A stretch of 64,000 nucleotides of DNA from Chloroflexota bacterium. Lineage in GTDB: Bacteria > Chloroflexota > Dehalococcoidia > Bin125. Of the stretch, positions 27,140-30,279 are shown one piece after another. The translations under genes were made by a program, and so were the position numbers. Location of the stretch: assembly GCA_026707145.1 (NCBI GenBank), contig JAPOXK010000021.1, positions 311,526-375,525 on the forward strand, read 5' to 3'. The notes beneath the pieces are model-generated. The model saw nothing but the letters and a program-made list of their open reading frames with translations, did not search any database and was not told the origin of the DNA. Numbering within the stretch: position 1 is the first letter of the stretch; each line of letters opens with the position of its first letter.

Positions 27140-27520
27140 CTCAAGGGCCAGGTGGCCTGTAAGCCGAGTTCTGTTCCCGCCGCCGCTGCGGCGGGCGGTG
27201 ACCATCTCTCTGGGGCGGCGGTTACCCGCCGCCTCTAGCGACCTACCCGAGGGCGAGCCGAGACTCCCATGGCCCTCCTATGCGGTCTTGCTCCGGGCGG
27301 GGCTTGCCCAGCCGGCCGGTCACCCGACCGCTGGTGCGCTCTTACCGCACCATTTCACCCTTACCTCGCGCCGCCAAGCGGGAGGCGGTTTGTTTCTGTG
27401 GCGCTTTCCTGAGGGTCACCCCTACTGGGAGTTACCCAGCGCCCCGTCTCGGTGGAGCTCGGACTTTCCTCGACCTCCCATGTTCAAGAGGCCGCGGCCA
27501 CCCGGCCACCTGGCCCGTGG
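27140..27520 (-). ncRNA. rnpB: RNase P RNA, bacterial type A
   Basis: The minus-strand sequence contains the universal blocks GAGGAAAGUCCGAGCUCC (the P4 5' strand), GGUAAGGGUGAAAUGGUGCGGUAAGAGCGCACCAG and ACAGAACUCGGCUUAC (the P4 3' strand). P1 pairing is GGGCCAGGUGGCC (5', about 27504-27516) with GGCCACCUGGCCC (3', about 27145-27158). Ends are approximate to within 10 nt. Confidence 0.9.
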
Positions 27521-27566
27521 TGATCGTACACCCGCGGCCCGGCGCGTTGGGACCGAAGCGACGTGC

Positions 27567-27974
27567 TCAGTCTGGCTCTTTACCATCAAGGGCGGCGTTC
27601 GCCAGCGCATCCGCGCGGCGGTTCTGCTCGCGCGGGACGTGGTCAACGCTGAACCGAACGAATTGATCGGAGAGCGTGTCGAGCTCTCGATAGAGGGGCT
27701 TGAGCCGCTCGTGGCGCACGCGATAGCTCCCCTGAAGCTGCCGCACGACCAACTGGGAGTCGAGCCGCAGCTGAAGCTCGGTGGCGCCAAGCTCAAGGGC
27801 GGCGCGCACGGCAGCGATGGCGGCACGGTACTCGGCTTCGTTATTGGTCCCGCGGCCGATCGCCTGTGCAATACGGCGCAACTCGTTCCCATCGTGGTCG
27901 AGGACGACGGCGCCACAAGCGGCCGGGCCTGGATTCCCGCGCGCGGCACCGTCGGCGTAAGCGATCAGGCGCAC
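27567..27974 (-). CDS. rnhA: ribonuclease HI family protein
   Basis: 135 aa with a GTG start. It has YADGAARGNPGPAACGAVV, the NNEAEY and DSQLVV regions, and a C-terminal D in HVPREQNRRADALAN, the RNase H-like catalytic DEDD arrangement. Confidence 0.8.
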   Translation of the reverse strand: MRLIAYADGAARGNPGPAACGAVVLDHDGNELRRIAQAIGRGTNNEAEYRAAIAAVRAALELGATELQLRLDSQLVVRQLQGSYRVRHERLKPLYRELDTLSDQFVRFSVDHVPREQNRRADALANAALDGKEPD

Positions 27975-27979
27975 GCGCG

Positions 27980-29404
27980 TCAGCCACGCAGGACCGTCGT
28001 GATGCCGTCATCGCGGACGATGACCCGCTCCACGAGTTCGCGGAGCGTCGACTGGCGCGCGTCGAATGAGAGCTGATCCCAACTGGTGCGGATGCGCTCG
28101 ACTTGCCGGTCGAAGTGCTTGCGCTGCTCTACTTCAAAAGCGTGAACCGAAGCGCGCTGCTCTTGAGCGCGCAGCTCGTCGGCGGCGCGGCGGCGCTCGC
28201 GGACGAGAAGGTTGGCCGCGGTACGGAATTCGTGGCGCGAGATGCGGTTGTCCGCGAGGCGGTTGAGTTGCTCGGACAAGCGACGATCGAGGGACCGCAG
28301 GCGTCCGCGGGTACGTGCCGCGGCTTGAGCAGCGCCGGCCGCAACCGCTTGCTCATCGCCAGCGCGGATAACAGACGACTGTACCGCACCCGGTTCATGG
28401 CCCCTGATATGACCAACGACCTCGGCCTCCAGATCGTCAGCACGCCGTGTGTGGTAATCACAGACCGATTGGTTGGTGCGAGACTCGCACTGGTAATAGC
28501 GGTACGCCTGTTCCGCTGTGTCGCCGTTGCCGCGCCGCCATTGCTGCTTGCGGGAGACACCGATCATCCGATTACCGCAGTCGCCGCAGTGGGCGAGGCC
28601 GGAGAGGAGGTAGCGGCTCGGATTTCGCGCCGAGGGAGCGGTCCGCCGATCCTGTAGCCGTACTTGGACAGCACGGAACTGATCCTCGGTAACGATTGGG
28701 GGGTGGCTGCCCGGTACCGTGATGCCGAAGCGAGTGTAGGTGCCCACGTAGACGCGATTACGGAGGATGTCCCGAATAGAGACCATGCTCCAGTTCCCGC
28801 CCCGGCGCGTGCGATAGCCCTCTTCGTTGAGGCGACGCGCGATCCGCCGCACACCGAGGTTCTCCTCCAGATAGAGCCGGAAAATATGCCGGACGAGGGC
28901 CGCCTCGTTCTCGACGATCTCCAAGCGGCGATCCGGTCCCACCCGATAGCCGAAGGGTGGACGGCCGAGCGCCGCCCCGGACACCGCGCGCCGCCGCATC
29001 GCCGCGCGCACCTGCTTGCCCAAACGGCCGCCCGGCGCGTCGTTCCAAAATTGGATGATACGTTCGTCGTCTATCGCTCCCTCTGCCAAACTAAGAACGG
29101 AAGCTCCCAACTCCGTGATCTCGTAGAAGGTGCGAATCGCGTCGATCTGGCTGGCACCGAGATGGTTGAACGTCTGGACGACCACAATGCAGAAGTCGGG
29201 AGCGGGGCGCTGGAGGAATGCGAGCATTTGCCGCAGGCCAGGACGGTCACTGCGAATGTCGGCATCAATGAAGGAGGCAGTGGCTTCATAGCCGTGTGCG
29301 CGGCAGGCCTCCAGAAACGCATCGTTCTGGTCGGAGAGCGAAGGGTGGGCACGCTGCGAAGAAGCGTTGGGGAGGTTGCCGCTGAAGTATCCGACTGCGC
29401 GCAT
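27980..29404 (-). CDS. large serine recombinase (resolvase-like N-domain with degenerate catalytic motifs, recombinase domain, zinc beta-ribbon, coiled coil)
   Basis: It has the recombinase domain GRPPFGYRV...ALVRHIFRLYLEENLGVRRIARRLNEEGYRTRRGGNWSMVSIRDILRNRVYVGTY. It has the Zn ribbon LLSGLAHCGDCGNRM...YYQCESR...C and a C-terminal coiled coil. It most likely starts at MRAVGYF; the listed ORF extends to 29473. The expected Y-x-R-V-S-T-x-x-Q block reads GYFSGNLPNASSQ. The expected V-V-x-x-x-D-R-L-x-R block reads VVVQTFNHLGAS. Confidence 0.75.
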   Translation of the reverse strand: MRAVGYFSGNLPNASSQRAHPSLSDQNDAFLEACRAHGYEATASFIDADIRSDRPGLRQMLAFLQRPAPDFCIVVVQTFNHLGASQIDAIRTFYEITELGASVLSLAEGAIDDERIIQFWNDAPGGRLGKQVRAAMRRRAVSGAALGRPPFGYRVGPDRRLEIVENEAALVRHIFRLYLEENLGVRRIARRLNEEGYRTRRGGNWSMVSIRDILRNRVYVGTYTRFGITVPGSHPPIVTEDQFRAVQVRLQDRRTAPSARNPSRYLLSGLAHCGDCGNRMIGVSRKQQWRRGNGDTAEQAYRYYQCESRTNQSVCDYHTRRADDLEAEVVGHIRGHEPGAVQSSVIRAGDEQAVAAGAAQAAARTRGRLRSLDRRLSEQLNRLADNRISRHEFRTAANLLVRERRRAADELRAQEQRASVHAFEVEQRKHFDRQVERIRTSWDQLSFDARQSTLRELVERVIVRDDGITTVLRG

Positions 29405-29408
29405 TAGG

Positions 29409-30107
29409 CTAGGCCACGTACAAGATCCGCTGACAGGAGGGGCACCGAACCGGTTGATCGGCGCGCCGGGCACGGTTGACCGCGTTAATGGGAAGCGTGA
29501 GGCGGCAGCCGCTGCAGGCGCCTCCCACGACGCGCGCGATCACAATGGGCATGAGGCGGCGTTGGGCATCGTAGATCTCCAACTCTTCCGCCTCGATATC
29601 CGCCCGCGCCGCGTTCACTTCCTCCCCAATCGCCGCGATCTCCTCCTCAAGCGCCGTGACTTCCGTCCGAAGCTGCTGCTGCTGTTGCTGCCAGCGCGCG
29701 CGTGACGCTTCGACGAGCTTCTCGAGGTGTGCAGCCGCTGCCTGTGCTTCCTCTTCCTGTTCGATGAGAGCTAGGAGGTGATCCTCTTGCGCCCGAAGCG
29801 CGCGCCGCAGGGCGAAGATCTCCGCTTGAAGGTTGCTGAGTTCTTTGGGGTCCTTGATCTCGCCACCGTAGAGCTTGGCGTCCTCGGCTTGGATCTTCGT
29901 CCGGGCATCTTCGGTACTTTGCTCTAGCGACTGCCTGTGCTCGCGCACTTCGTCAAGAATCTGCCGCTGTGCGCTTTCCTCAGCTTGAAGGCCGGCCGCG
30001 CGCGGATCGTCTCTGGTCTGCCGGAGCTTGTCGTCGCGCTCCTGCTTAAGGGCGTCGAGACGAAGATCGATCTCTTGCAACTCCGACAGGTCGCTCAATG
30101 CGATCAT
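29409..30107 (-). CDS. COG1579-type zinc-ribbon/coiled-coil protein
   Basis: 232 aa. It has a long coiled coil, then a C-terminal C4 ribbon: GGACSGCRLTLP...VRCPSCQRILY. Its stop overlaps the start of the recombinase gene. Confidence 0.7.
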   Translation of the reverse strand: MIALSDLSELQEIDLRLDALKQERDDKLRQTRDDPRAAGLQAEESAQRQILDEVREHRQSLEQSTEDARTKIQAEDAKLYGGEIKDPKELSNLQAEIFALRRALRAQEDHLLALIEQEEEAQAAAAHLEKLVEASRARWQQQQQQLRTEVTALEEEIAAIGEEVNAARADIEAEELEIYDAQRRLMPIVIARVVGGACSGCRLTLPINAVNRARRADQPVRCPSCQRILYVA

Positions 30108-30279
30108 GCGTTCTCCGCTTCGGATAGGCTATCTGAGCTTACGAACCGATGTTCGCTAACGCAATAGTCGCATCCGGCTCAGCGGAGAGGGTAAGGTAGG
30201 AAAGAGAAACGCTGGTGCGCCGTGTGCACAATCAGCCATTCGCCGCGCCCTTCTCTCCTTGTAAGTATGCAGGCCTGTC

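What the first reader, a model, noticed from the sequence alone, without database searches (positions are those of the whole stretch)
27140..30107. rnpB locus operon: COG1579 zinc-ribbon protein, an apparently catalytically dead large serine recombinase, and RNase HI
The pairing of a COG1579 ribbon protein with RNase HI is a conserved arrangement known from Actinobacteria, and here it abuts the RNase P RNA gene. A full-length large serine recombinase (about 475 aa) is wedged between the two. Its start overlaps the ribbon gene's stop, and its stop sits 6 nt from the RNase H start. The tight coupling suggests co-translation in one operon rather than a recent mobile insertion, and no phage or IS genes or obvious att repeats flank it. 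By eye the N-terminal catalytic domain has lost the hallmark residues. The Y-x-R-V-S-T block reads GYFSGNLPNASSQ. The V-V-x-x-x-D-R-L-x-R block reads VVVQTFNHLGAS, which would replace Asp67, Arg68 and Arg71 (gamma-delta numbering) with N, H and A. The recombinase, Zn-ribbon and coiled-coil DNA-binding domains look intact. This would be a domesticated, DNA-binding but recombination-dead serine recombinase recruited into an RNA/DNA-hybrid-processing operon.
Basis: partly seen in the sequence, partly recalled or inferred. Interest (0 to 1): 0.7.

Follow-up and report, generated by a model that had tools for sequence, protein, structure and literature searches.

The report
Dead serine recombinase kept as housekeeping gene
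A full-length "integrase" gene that has lost its cutting residues but is strictly conserved has become a fixed, single-copy chromosomal gene in hundreds of Chloroflexota species. It is always welded to an RNA-polymerase-associated zinc-ribbon gene and almost always followed by an RNase H gene, so it is a domesticated DNA-binding protein and not a mobile element.

Summary
On the minus strand lie a COG1579/CT398 zinc-ribbon gene (30107-29409), a 474-aa large-serine-recombinase (LSR) homologue (29404-27980), RNase HI (27974-27567) and rnpB (27513-27144).

The LSR homologue keeps the whole LSR architecture. The positions of the Ser nucleophile, Asp67, Arg68 and Arg71 read N, N, H and A. In 190 orthologues these columns are hypervariable, whereas 24 nearest canonical relatives in the same alignment keep them in 23-24 of 24 sequences.

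The gene is under purifying selection (dN/dS about 0.08, N-domain 0.1) and has host composition and no flanking repeats. It occupies the same housekeeping locus in at least 80 Dehalococcoidia/Chloroflexota species (325 hits).

The ribbon gene lies immediately upstream in 78/78 non-redundant loci. An RNase H gene follows in 77/78: HI in 64 and, by in-situ displacement, HIII in 13. Divergent dead members usually keep the ribbon partner. Active relatives sit in phage/IS contexts.

Most likely it is a non-catalytic nucleic-acid-binding partner of the ribbon protein, tied to RNA:DNA-hybrid handling. This function is inferred, not shown. I found no description of it in the searched papers. Corrections: a 4-nt gap, not an overlap, at the start; rnpB has its own promoter.

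The parts
29409..30107 (-). COG1579 / CT398-FlgZ family protein (232 aa). It has an acidic coiled-coil hairpin and a C-terminal C4 zinc ribbon (CSGC...CPSC).
   Evidence: PF02591 48 bits and PF24481 34.2 bits, both above their cut-offs. phmmer matches to CT398 (4ILO) and MSMEG_4306 (5Y05). Present immediately upstream of the dead LSR in 78/78 non-redundant loci.
27980..29404 (-). Catalytically dead large serine recombinase homologue (474 aa plus stop). The ATG at 29404 lies 4 nt after the ribbon stop.
   Evidence: PF07508 and PF13408. AF2 model with pLDDT 82 whose best Foldseek matches are the SPbeta, Bxb1, PhiC31 and A118 integrases. Full-length orthologues at 45-97% identity.
28976..29404 (-). 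Degenerate resolvase-type N-terminal domain plus basic alpha-E region (aa 1-143). Nucleophile position = Asn10; D67/R68/R71 equivalents = Asn80/His81/Ala84.
   Evidence: PF00239 38.2 bits when scanned alone. hhalign against gamma-delta resolvase. Column tallies in 190 orthologues and 24 canonical controls. dN/dS 0.09-0.11.
28625..28975 (-). Recombinase domain (RD, aa 144-260). It is the most conserved part of the protein and strongly basic.
   Evidence: PF07508 at residues 188-276 of the 497-aa ORF. Mean frequency of the commonest residue is 0.79, against 0.58 for the N-domain. Net charge +12 against +7 in canonical relatives.
28370..28624 (-). Zinc-ribbon domain (ZD, aa 261-345) with all four Cys (C273, C276, C306, C315).
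   Evidence: PF13408 52.4 bits. Cys tallies.
27980..28369 (-). Coiled-coil motif (aa about 346-445) and C-terminal beta-hairpin (aa 446-474).
   Evidence: AF2 helices 351-384 and 390-444, strands 458-472.
27567..27974 (-). RNase HI (135 aa, GTG start), related to the Rv2228c N-domain and archaeal-type RNase HI. The DEDD residues are visible in the alignment.
   Evidence: PF13456 89.5 bits and PF00075 44 bits. NF005567 148.9 bits over the N-domain. 3HST 113 bits.
27144..27513 (-). rnpB, bacterial RNase P RNA class A.
   Evidence: RF00010 290.5 bits, full model 1-367.
27523..27528 (-). Putative rnpB -10 box (TACGAT), 9 nt upstream of the RNA 5' end.
   Evidence: A TAnnnT/TATACT-like hexamer sits at the same distance from the rnpB 5' end in about 60 related loci. 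It was not flagged by the consensus scan.
30136..30164 (-). Putative promoter of the ribbon-LSR-RNase H unit (TTGCGT-17 nt-TAAGCT). Low confidence.
   Evidence: Read from the sequence. Similar boxes are seen in close relatives L003/L006/L007, and clear TTGC..TATAAT promoters occur at the same place in other clades. It was not flagged by the consensus scan.

Best explanation
The gene at 29404-27980 is a domesticated large serine recombinase that can no longer carry out the phosphoserine chemistry. It is kept as a chromosomal housekeeping protein in a large clade of Chloroflexota (Dehalococcoidia).

Shown here:
- It retains the whole LSR scaffold: resolvase-fold N-domain, basic alpha-E, recombinase domain, zinc-ribbon domain and coiled coil.
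- The nucleophile and the Asp/Arg catalytic constellation are gone and evolve freely.
- All domains are under purifying selection.
- It is not in a mobile element.
- It is genetically welded to a COG1579 (CT398/FlgZ/MSMEG_4306-type) zinc-ribbon gene, with a spacer of 0-7 nt in most loci.
- In the core clade it is followed directly by a gene for RNase H activity, either HI or HIII.

Inferred:
- The protein acts as a non-catalytic nucleic-acid binder, specific for a sequence or a structure. It would use the RD and ZD, which are unusually conserved and unusually basic, and the dimerising N-domain, much as resolvase subunits act at accessory sites.
- It works in stoichiometric partnership with the ribbon protein. 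The ribbon family is reported to associate with RNA polymerase and DNA.
- Together they would position or regulate RNA polymerase and/or RNase H where RNA:DNA hybrids form.

Likely origin (inferred): an LSR-bearing element integrated between the anciently linked COG1579 and rnhA genes. Everything but the integrase gene was lost, and the integrase was exapted.
For: Architecture.

Catalytic loss:
- One search gives the register against gamma-delta resolvase.
- tallies 190 unique orthologues. The S10 column reads T30 P28 S24 A21 Y17 Q13 C13 N10 and others. The R68 column reads S61 R32 H28 G23 and others. The R71 column reads A41 D28 R27 G25 and others. Structural positions G5, Y6, L16, Q19, L69 and G70 are nearly invariant.
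- One search is the control in the same alignment: 24 canonical relatives have S10 24/24, R68 24/24, R71 24/24, D67 23/24 and R8 23/24.

Selection: one search gives dN/dS 0.07-0.09 overall and 0.09-0.11 in the N-domain.

Not mobile:
- Identical housekeeping synteny (YceD-L32-FabD-NusB-ACP-Tat upstream, MurE downstream) at 50-61% protein identity.
- No flanking repeats.
- GC and GC3 equal to the neighbours'.
- By contrast, a canonical relative (P0174) sits among small hypothetical ORFs, an HTH_3 gene and an IS605 OrfB.

Partnership:
- The ribbon gene is directly upstream in 85/85 loci, with a gap of at most 28 nt in 84.
- It is also upstream of divergent dead members whose other neighbours differ.

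RNase H link:
- RNase HI follows in 64 and RNase HIII in 13 of 78 non-redundant loci.
- The ribbon-RNase HI pair matches mycobacterial Rv2229c-Rv2228c.
- COG1579-rnhA adjacency is reported in several phyla (PMC3372290).

Ribbon family and RNA polymerase:
- MSMEG_4306 co-purifies with the RNAP beta subunit and with DNA (PMC7092591).
- AF3 models place ML1638 and CT398 on the beta' shelf/jaw (bioRxiv 10.64898/2026.07.15.738315).

The RD is the most conserved domain (0.79) and more basic than in canonical LSRs.
Against: - No binding site was found. No non-coding k-mer is conserved across the loci, and the upstream regions show only promoters.
- A physical ribbon-LSR interaction is inferred from gene order alone.
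- One lineage (L089/L090) keeps the dead LSR in the same synteny without a ribbon or RNase H gene next to it. Divergent members lack an adjacent RNase H. The RNase H link is therefore clade-specific.
- About a quarter of orthologues have lost three of the four ZD cysteines, so canonical ZD-DNA recognition is not universally required.
- The RNA polymerase association of COG1579 proteins rests on pull-down data and predicted models in other phyla.
- Thr or Ser occurs at the nucleophile column in 54 of 190 sequences. Inactivity is inferred from non-conservation, not measured.
Confidence: 0.6

Rival explanations
1. It is primarily a transcription factor. A dead LSR dimer would bind an operator, for example at its own promoter or the rnpB promoter, and regulate the operon or RNase P RNA synthesis. 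The ribbon protein would be the contact to RNA polymerase. RNase H adjacency would be inherited synteny.
For: - rnpB lies downstream on the same strand in 63 of 73 informative core loci, at a median of 538 nt.
- It still lies within 1-3 kb in divergent loci L088, L089 and L091, whose other neighbours differ.
- The rnpB promoter abuts the end of the operon.
- COG1579 proteins are reported or predicted to bind RNA polymerase.
Against: - No conserved operator-like sequence was found upstream of the ribbon gene or of rnpB.
- rnpB is absent from, or inverted in, 10 informative loci.
- This reading does not explain why RNase HI was replaced in situ by RNase HIII rather than simply lost.
Confidence: 0.15
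2. It binds RNA or RNA:DNA hybrids rather than duplex DNA. It could act as a chaperone or assembly factor for RNase P RNA or another structured RNA, or as the substrate-recognition subunit for RNase H.
For: - Persistent linkage to rnpB and RNase H genes.
- Very basic alpha-E, RD and coiled-coil segments (pI 11.4-11.7).
- HP0958, a ribbon-family member, is described as having a possible RNA-chaperone role for flaA mRNA (PMC3372290).
Against: - RD and ZD are known only as duplex-DNA-binding modules (solved complexes).
- No LSR is known to bind RNA (background knowledge).
- rnpB linkage is not universal.
Confidence: 0.08
3. It is a decoy or immunity protein against LSR-encoding phages. It would occupy an attB-like site, or co-assemble with incoming integrases into dead tetramers, blocking integration.
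For: - The closest active relatives are phage/IS-borne LSRs sharing the GYFR...SL..Q N-terminal framework.
- The N-domain fold and coiled coil needed for subunit contacts are retained under selection.
Against: - It is a single-copy core gene in a fixed housekeeping locus with slow, uniform evolution. Defence genes typically show patchy distribution and rapid turnover (background knowledge).
- The invariant pairing with COG1579 and the RNase H linkage are not explained.
Confidence: 0.06
4. It is still an active recombinase with a relocated nucleophile (for example invariant Tyr6, Cys34 or Tyr39). It would carry out a programmed chromosomal rearrangement, like XisF or SpoIVCA.
For: - The best NCBIfam match is XisF (82 bits, far below the cut-off of 375).
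- Y6, C34 and Y39 are invariant or nearly invariant.
- Pseudoenzymes sometimes have migrated catalytic residues (PMC10211241 abstract).
Against: - Not only the Ser but also the phosphate-activating R68 and R71 and D67 are hypervariable, and R8 is lost in 40% of sequences.
- Y6 is also invariant in canonical enzymes, where it is not the nucleophile.
- No interrupted gene, repeats or excisable segment was seen at the locus.
Confidence: 0.05
5. It is an ordinary integrase of a resident mobile element, or a decaying relic of one.
For: NCBI annotates members simply as 'recombinase family protein'.
Against: - Same locus in 80 species representatives.
- dN/dS about 0.08.
- Host-like composition.
- No repeats and no phage or IS genes.
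- Intact reading frame at 45-97% identity.
Confidence: 0.01

Closest known systems
Large serine recombinases / serine integrases (Bxb1, PhiC31, A118/LI, SPbeta SprA; by NCBIfam XisF, CcrB)
   Same: Same five-part architecture and fold: resolvase-type N-domain, alpha-E, recombinase domain, zinc-ribbon domain, coiled-coil motif. The nearest active relatives share the N-terminal framework AVGYFR...SL..Q.
   Different: The Ser nucleophile, D67, R68 and R71 are lost and unconstrained. It is a chromosomal housekeeping gene with no att sites and no mobile element. The conservation pattern may also differ: here RD is more conserved than the N-domain, which I recall being the reverse of typical LSRs, but I did not measure per-domain conservation in canonical LSRs.
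Mycobacterial Rv2229c-Rv2228c (MSMEG_4306-MSMEG_4305) gene pair, and COG1579-rnhA(-rnpB) linkage in other phyla
   Same: The ribbon protein matches CT398 and MSMEG_4306. The RNase HI matches the Rv2228c N-domain best of all solved structures. Adjacency of COG1579 genes to rnhA, and to rnpB in Borrelia, is described in PMC3372290.
   Different: Here a 474-aa dead LSR is wedged between the two genes. The RNase HI lacks the CobC-type phosphatase domain fused to it in mycobacteria (135 aa; the match covers only positions 2-134 of the 378-position model).
Non-catalytic resolvase subunits at accessory sites (Tn3/gamma-delta res sites II-III, Sin regulatory complex)
   Same: This is a precedent for serine-recombinase dimers acting purely as architectural DNA-binding units (structures 2r0q and 5cy1 appear among the fold matches; PMC2428073 listed). 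It is what the protein most plausibly works like.
   Different: Those subunits are chemically competent proteins used non-catalytically in one context. Here the protein itself is permanently dead and is not part of a recombination system.
CT398 (CdsZ) / HP0958 (FlgZ) / ML1638 family as RNA-polymerase-associated factors
   Same: The partner gene belongs to this family. The family is reported to bind sigma54-holoenzyme or RNAP beta' and to associate with DNA.
   Different: None of the described members is paired with a recombinase-derived protein. Whether the Chloroflexota protein binds RNA polymerase is untested.

Membership tests
Large serine recombinase (functional enzyme family) | N-terminal resolvase-fold catalytic domain | tested here: met
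   PF00239 38.2 bits (cut-off 23.3) on the isolated domain, and 21/21 family members match. AF2 gives a beta-alpha-beta fold, and Foldseek matches the TP901-1, gamma-delta and Sin catalytic domains.
Large serine recombinase (functional enzyme family) | Ser nucleophile in the Y-x-R-V-S-T motif | tested here: not met
   Asn10 in the window protein. The column is hypervariable in 190 orthologues but Ser in 24/24 canonical relatives in the same alignment.
Large serine recombinase (functional enzyme family) | Catalytic Asp/Arg constellation (R8, D67, R68, R71, gamma-delta numbering) | tested here: not met
   These positions read S8, N80, H81 and A84 in the window protein. The columns are hypervariable in the family and 23-24/24 conserved in canonical controls. 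D36 and R45 equivalents are largely kept (D47, R54).
Large serine recombinase (functional enzyme family) | Recombinase domain (PF07508) and zinc-ribbon domain (PF13408) with four Cys | tested here: met
   83.8 and 52.4 bits. C273, C276, C306 and C315 are present. Note that 49/190 orthologues have lost three of these Cys.
Large serine recombinase (functional enzyme family) | Coiled-coil motif emerging from the ZD | tested here: met
   AF2 helices 351-384 and 390-444, followed by a return beta-hairpin.
Large serine recombinase (functional enzyme family) | Residence in a mobile element or excisable segment bounded by att sites | tested here: not met
   Conserved housekeeping synteny in 80 species representatives. 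No flanking repeats. Host composition.
Large serine recombinase (functional enzyme family) | Site-specific strand exchange activity | not testable with these tools
   Requires biochemical or genetic assays.
COG1579 / DUF164 (CT398, HP0958, MSMEG_4306) zinc-ribbon proteins | Coiled-coil hairpin followed by a C4 zinc ribbon with two CxxC pairs | tested here: met
   PF24481 34.2 bits (cut-off 27) and PF02591 48 bits (cut-off 29.1). CSGC and CPSC are in the sequence. Full-length alignment to CT398.
RNase HI | RNase H fold with DEDD catalytic residues | tested here: met
   PF00075 and PF13456 above their cut-offs. The alignment to Rv2228c (3HST) shows conserved ADG, NNxAEY, DS and AD motifs. Activity was not tested.
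Bacterial RNase P RNA class A | Match to RF00010 over the whole model | tested here: met
   290.5 bits, model positions 1-367/367.

The most novel reading that the evidence does not exclude
The dead recombinase and the COG1579 ribbon protein form a two-subunit adaptor associated with RNA polymerase. The recombinase-derived subunit would anchor the complex to specific DNA sites or structures, for example at heavily transcribed stable-RNA genes such as the neighbouring rnpB. The ribbon subunit would contact RNAP beta'. The co-encoded RNase H (HI or HIII) would be delivered to co-transcriptional R-loops. This would be the first serine recombinase exapted as a targeting module for genome maintenance. 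It would also give the widespread, unexplained COG1579-rnhA linkage a mechanism.
Probability: 0.15. Interest if true: 0.85.

Novelty: new variant of a known kind. Interest (0 to 1): 0.7.

Why it matters
Serine integrases are studied almost only as mobile-element enzymes and genome-engineering tools. A dead LSR that is under selection, spans a large clade and sits in a core operon would be a clear bacterial case of recombinase domestication into a pseudoenzyme. The searched literature did not hold a description of one.

It also bears on an open annotation problem. COG1579 proteins are widespread, essential in M. tuberculosis under some conditions according to PMC8469502, and repeatedly linked to rnhA, dnaG and sigma genes, yet their mechanism is unknown. 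A lineage in which this protein has acquired an obligate DNA-binding partner, and in which RNase HI and HIII swap in place, offers a tractable handle on that function.

Practically, several hundred database entries named 'recombinase family protein' in Chloroflexota should not be counted as integrases or taken as evidence of prophages, and they are poor candidates for LSR tool mining.

Tried and rejected
1. Search for the binding site. 12-mers shared across 78 loci all fall inside the LSR gene (NWSMV, YRYYQC, NKMIGV codons) or inside rnpB; none is non-coding. Alignment by eye of the YceD-ribbon intergenic regions shows only promoters and, in the window's sub-clade, a conserved leader CCTAATCGAAGCGGAGA. 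The regions upstream of rnpB show only a -10 box. No target site can be proposed.

2. Charge complementarity between the acidic ribbon coiled coil (net -16) and the LSR coiled coil. The window protein's coiled coil is basic (pI 11.5), but the family median net charge is only +1. I rejected this as a general argument for a coiled-coil/coiled-coil interface.

3. AF2 on a ribbon-linker-LSR fusion. The sequences were prepared but not submitted.

4. rnpB as part of the operon. The linkage is common but not universal, and rnpB has its own promoter.

5. Consensus promoter/terminator scan. There were no promoter hits, and the terminator-like hits were at shuffle level.

6. Literature searches for inactive, domesticated or pseudo serine recombinases, and for Dehalococcoidia plus serine recombinase, found nothing relevant.

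7. Flanking att-like repeats. Only short chance matches of 64-93% identity (mostly below 85%) were found in GC-rich sequence; the one long inverted repeat is the rnpB P1 stem.

Full report
**Anatomy**

All four features lie on the minus strand.
- A 232-aa COG1579/CT398-type protein is at 30107-29409. It has a coiled-coil hairpin (PF24481) and a C4 zinc ribbon (PF02591).
- A 474-aa homologue of large serine recombinases (LSRs) follows, starting at the ATG at 29404 and ending at 27980.
- RNase HI follows, starting at the GTG at 27974 and ending at 27567.
- A full-length class A RNase P RNA gene is at 27513-27144 (290.5 bits).

The spacers are 4 nt (ribbon stop to LSR ATG), 5 nt (LSR stop to RNase H GTG) and 53 nt (RNase H stop to rnpB). 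The mechanical ORF list offers a longer GTG start at 29473 that would overlap the ribbon gene. All 120 listed homologues begin MRA[VI]GYF, which fixes the ATG.

The ribbon protein's solved relatives are CT398 and MSMEG_4306. The RNase HI's best solved relative is the N-domain of M. tuberculosis Rv2228c (113 bits; NF005567 148.9 bits over the N-domain). The outer two genes therefore reproduce the mycobacterial Rv2229c-Rv2228c pair, with the LSR homologue wedged between them.

**Is the recombinase dead?**

The protein has the recombinase domain (PF07508, 83.8 bits) and the zinc-ribbon domain (PF13408, 52.4 bits). An AF2 model (pLDDT 82) shows a beta-alpha-beta N-domain, the two DNA-binding domains, a long coiled coil (helices 351-384 and 390-444) and a C-terminal hairpin. 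Its best structural matches are the SPbeta, Bxb1, PhiC31 and A118 integrases.

The N-domain scanned alone is still a significant PF00239 match (38.2 bits). The same is true of 21/21 family members. The scan of the longer 497-aa ORF did not list it.

Profile-sequence alignment to gamma-delta resolvase gives these equivalences.
- G5-Y6 align with G5-Y6.
- Asn10 aligns with Ser10.
- D47 aligns with D36.
- R54 aligns with R45.
- N80, H81 and A84 align with D67, R68 and R71.

In an alignment of 190 unique orthologues, the columns of S10, D67, R68 and R71 are hypervariable. For example, the S10 column reads T30 P28 S24 A21 Y17 Q13 C13 N10. R8 is kept in only 114 sequences. Structural positions G5, Y6, L16, Q19, L69 and G70 are almost invariant.

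The decisive control came from the search of 1.84 billion representatives with the N-domain profile. That search also retrieved canonical LSRs that share the framework AVGYFRVST...SL..Q...DRFGR. In one joint alignment, 24 of these have S10 24/24, R68 24/24, R71 24/24, D67 23/24 and R8 23/24. Thirty further divergent dead members are as scrambled at these columns as the core family.

The loop that replaces the nucleophile segment varies in length and is the low-confidence part of the model (residues 14-18). Loss of the canonical chemistry is therefore a family trait and not a misalignment. Inactivity itself is still an inference from non-conservation.

**Pseudogene or mobile element?**

Neither.
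- Against two close orthologues (97% and 93% identity), dN/dS is 0.07-0.09 overall and 0.09-0.11 in the dead N-domain.
- GC (0.644) and GC3 (0.74) equal those of the neighbours and of the window.
- There are no att-like repeats around the gene.

A pattern scan of one genome per GTDB species found 325 species encoding a relative. The best 80 are all full-length matches at 44-97% identity (best segment), and all are Dehalococcoidia/Chloroflexota MAGs. Every named member in the protein collection is 'recombinase family protein [Chloroflexota bacterium]'.

In these loci the gene sits in one housekeeping neighbourhood. Divergently upstream are YceD, L32, FabD, (FabG), NusB, ACP, TatA/C and UDG. Downstream are rnpB and MurE. 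In contrast, the canonical relative P0174 lies among small hypothetical ORFs, an HTH_3 repressor-like gene and an IS605 OrfB.

**What is linked to it?**

- The ribbon gene is directly upstream in 85/85 loci, with a gap of -1 to 28 nt in 84 of them and mostly 1-4 nt.
- Among 78 non-redundant loci, the next gene downstream is RNase HI in 64.
- In 13 of the 78 it is instead a 315-aa RNase HIII at the same position (TIGR00716 183.7 bits against a cut-off of 161.2; PF01351 110 bits).
- Only one locus (L009) has neither.

RNase HI and HIII are unrelated in sequence but share substrate class (background knowledge). An in-situ swap therefore argues that selection keeps RNase H activity next to this pair, not a particular gene.

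The ribbon partnership reaches further than the RNase H link. Three divergent dead members (P0257, P0193, P0213; 56-71 bits to the N-domain profile) have the ribbon gene 3-57 nt upstream, although their other neighbours differ and no RNase H is adjacent. One lineage is an exception. L089/L090 (Chloroflexota MAGs) keep the dead LSR in the YceD...rnpB-MurE synteny with no ribbon or RNase H gene beside it.

rnpB lies downstream on the same strand in 63 of 73 informative core loci (median 538 nt). It lies within 1-3 kb in L088, L089 and L091. It is missing from seven loci and inverted or upstream in three. Across about 60 loci a TAnnnT hexamer sits 7-10 nt before the rnpB 5' end (TACGAT at 27528-27523 in the window). 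rnpB therefore has its own promoter, and calling the whole unit an rnpB operon is not justified.

**Conservation pattern**

The recombinase domain is the most conserved part: the mean frequency of the commonest residue is 0.79, against 0.58 for the N-domain, 0.68 for the ZD and 0.57 for the coiled coil. It is also more basic than in the canonical relatives (median net charge +12 against +7).

In ordinary LSRs the DNA-binding domains diverge with their att sites (background knowledge). Strong conservation here suggests one conserved ligand across the clade.

I could not find that ligand. No non-coding 12-mer is shared across loci, and the intergenic regions show only promoters. About a quarter of orthologues (49/190) have lost three of the four ZD cysteines together, so the zinc site is dispensable in one sub-clade.

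**Mechanism proposed**

Shown:
- a complete but chemically disabled LSR scaffold;
- purifying selection on every domain;
- a fixed chromosomal position;
- obligate gene-order coupling to a COG1579 gene;
- coupling to RNase H activity in the core clade.

From the literature:
- COG1579 genes are frequently next to rnhA, dnaG and sigma genes, and next to rnpB in Borrelia (PMC3372290; PMC8469502).
- MSMEG_4306 co-purifies with the RNAP beta subunit and cross-links to DNA (PMC7092591).
- AF3 models place ML1638 and CT398 on the RNAP beta' shelf/jaw, with the coiled coil reaching the sigma-binding region (bioRxiv 10.64898/2026.07.15.738315).

Inferred:
- The dead LSR acts as a non-catalytic nucleic-acid-binding subunit. 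It would probably be a dimer through the retained N-domain and alpha-E, as resolvase subunits are at accessory sites.
- It works with the ribbon protein at the interface of transcription and RNA:DNA-hybrid removal.
- It most likely arose when an LSR-bearing element integrated between the anciently linked ribbon and rnhA genes and only the integrase gene survived.

I put about 0.9 on 'domesticated, chemically dead, selected partner of the ribbon gene' and about 0.4-0.5 on the specific adaptor role.

**Rivals**

- A plain transcription factor for the operon or rnpB. This is compatible with the rnpB linkage, but no operator was found, and it does not explain the HI/HIII swap.
- An RNA or hybrid binder. 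The basic surfaces and the rnpB/RNase H linkage fit, but RD and ZD are known only on duplex DNA.
- An anti-integrase decoy. The distribution and evolutionary rate look like a core gene, not a defence gene.
- A still-active enzyme with a relocated nucleophile. Y6, C34 and Y39 are invariant, but the phosphate-activating arginines are gone and no rearranging segment is visible.
- An ordinary integrase or a relic. This is refuted by synteny and selection.

**Novelty and verdict**

Searches for inactive, domesticated or pseudo serine recombinases, and for Dehalococcoidia with serine recombinase, found no description. Databases name the members generically.

I classify it as a new variant of a known kind: an LSR-derived pseudoenzyme recruited into a conserved COG1579-RNase H module.

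Interest is 0.7.

Noticed in passing
L025, L033, L035, L037, L040-L042, L052, L054, L056, L059, L061, L062, L079 (e.g. L042:6427-7374): In 14 related loci (13 non-redundant) the gene after the dead LSR is a 315-aa RNase HIII (TIGR00716 above its cut-off) instead of RNase HI. This is an in-situ non-orthologous displacement.
   Followed up: yes
Orthologue alignment, window protein positions C276, C306, C315 (window 28577-28579, 28487-28489, 28460-28462, minus strand): 49 of 190 orthologues have lost three of the four zinc-ribbon cysteines together (to S/G/T/N, S/N/A and G), while C273 stays invariant. These include the loci with a longer (20-25 nt) ribbon-LSR spacer, such as L009-L011, L015 and L026.
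   Followed up: partly
L089:5001-6368 and L090:5001-6368 (GCA_009391875.1, GCA_027622315.1): A divergent dead LSR sits in the same YceD...rnpB-MurE synteny with no ribbon gene (73 nt to YceD in L090) and no RNase H. An ABC transporter operon lies between it and rnpB.
   Followed up: partly
window 27523-27528 (minus strand) and the equivalent position in about 60 loci: A conserved -10-like hexamer (TACGAT here; TATACT, TAGACT or TATAAT elsewhere) lies 7-10 nt upstream of the rnpB 5' end. rnpB therefore has its own promoter abutting the end of the RNase H gene.
   Followed up: partly
window 27980-29473 versus 28976-29404 (minus strand): hmmscan of the 497-aa ORF did not report PF00239 even at E <= 0.1. 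The isolated 143-aa N-domain scores 38.2 bits, E 1.8e-9. The cause (filters or bias correction) was not investigated.
   Followed up: no
window 30111-30130 (minus strand); same in L003, L006, L007, L009-L011, L015, L026: A leader CCTA(A/T)(T/C)CGAAGCGGAGA directly upstream of the ribbon start codon is conserved across a sub-clade whose proteins are only 38-56% identical. It may be just the RBS region, or a small regulatory element.
   Followed up: no
L010, about 140-60 nt upstream of the ribbon start: A tandem repeat of about five copies of GCGGTGGTGCTT/GCGGTGGTGCCC lies in the YceD-ribbon intergenic region of one relative.
   Followed up: no
P0239 (1002 aa), residues 561-705: A 1002-aa representative carries an N-domain-like segment in its middle (59 bits) and a canonical-looking resolvase start at its N-terminus. 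It may be a tandem or fused recombinase.
   Followed up: no
L001:8172-8813; L088:10716-11398: Tyrosine-recombinase (Phage_integrase/Xer-like) genes lie a few kb downstream of the dead LSR in two unrelated loci. In L001 the gene directly follows rnpB.
   Followed up: no
L091:6499-7326: In one divergent lineage the gene following the ribbon-dead LSR pair encodes an OGG_N (8-oxoguanine glycosylase-like) protein, with rnpB directly after it. This is another DNA-maintenance neighbour.
   Followed up: no
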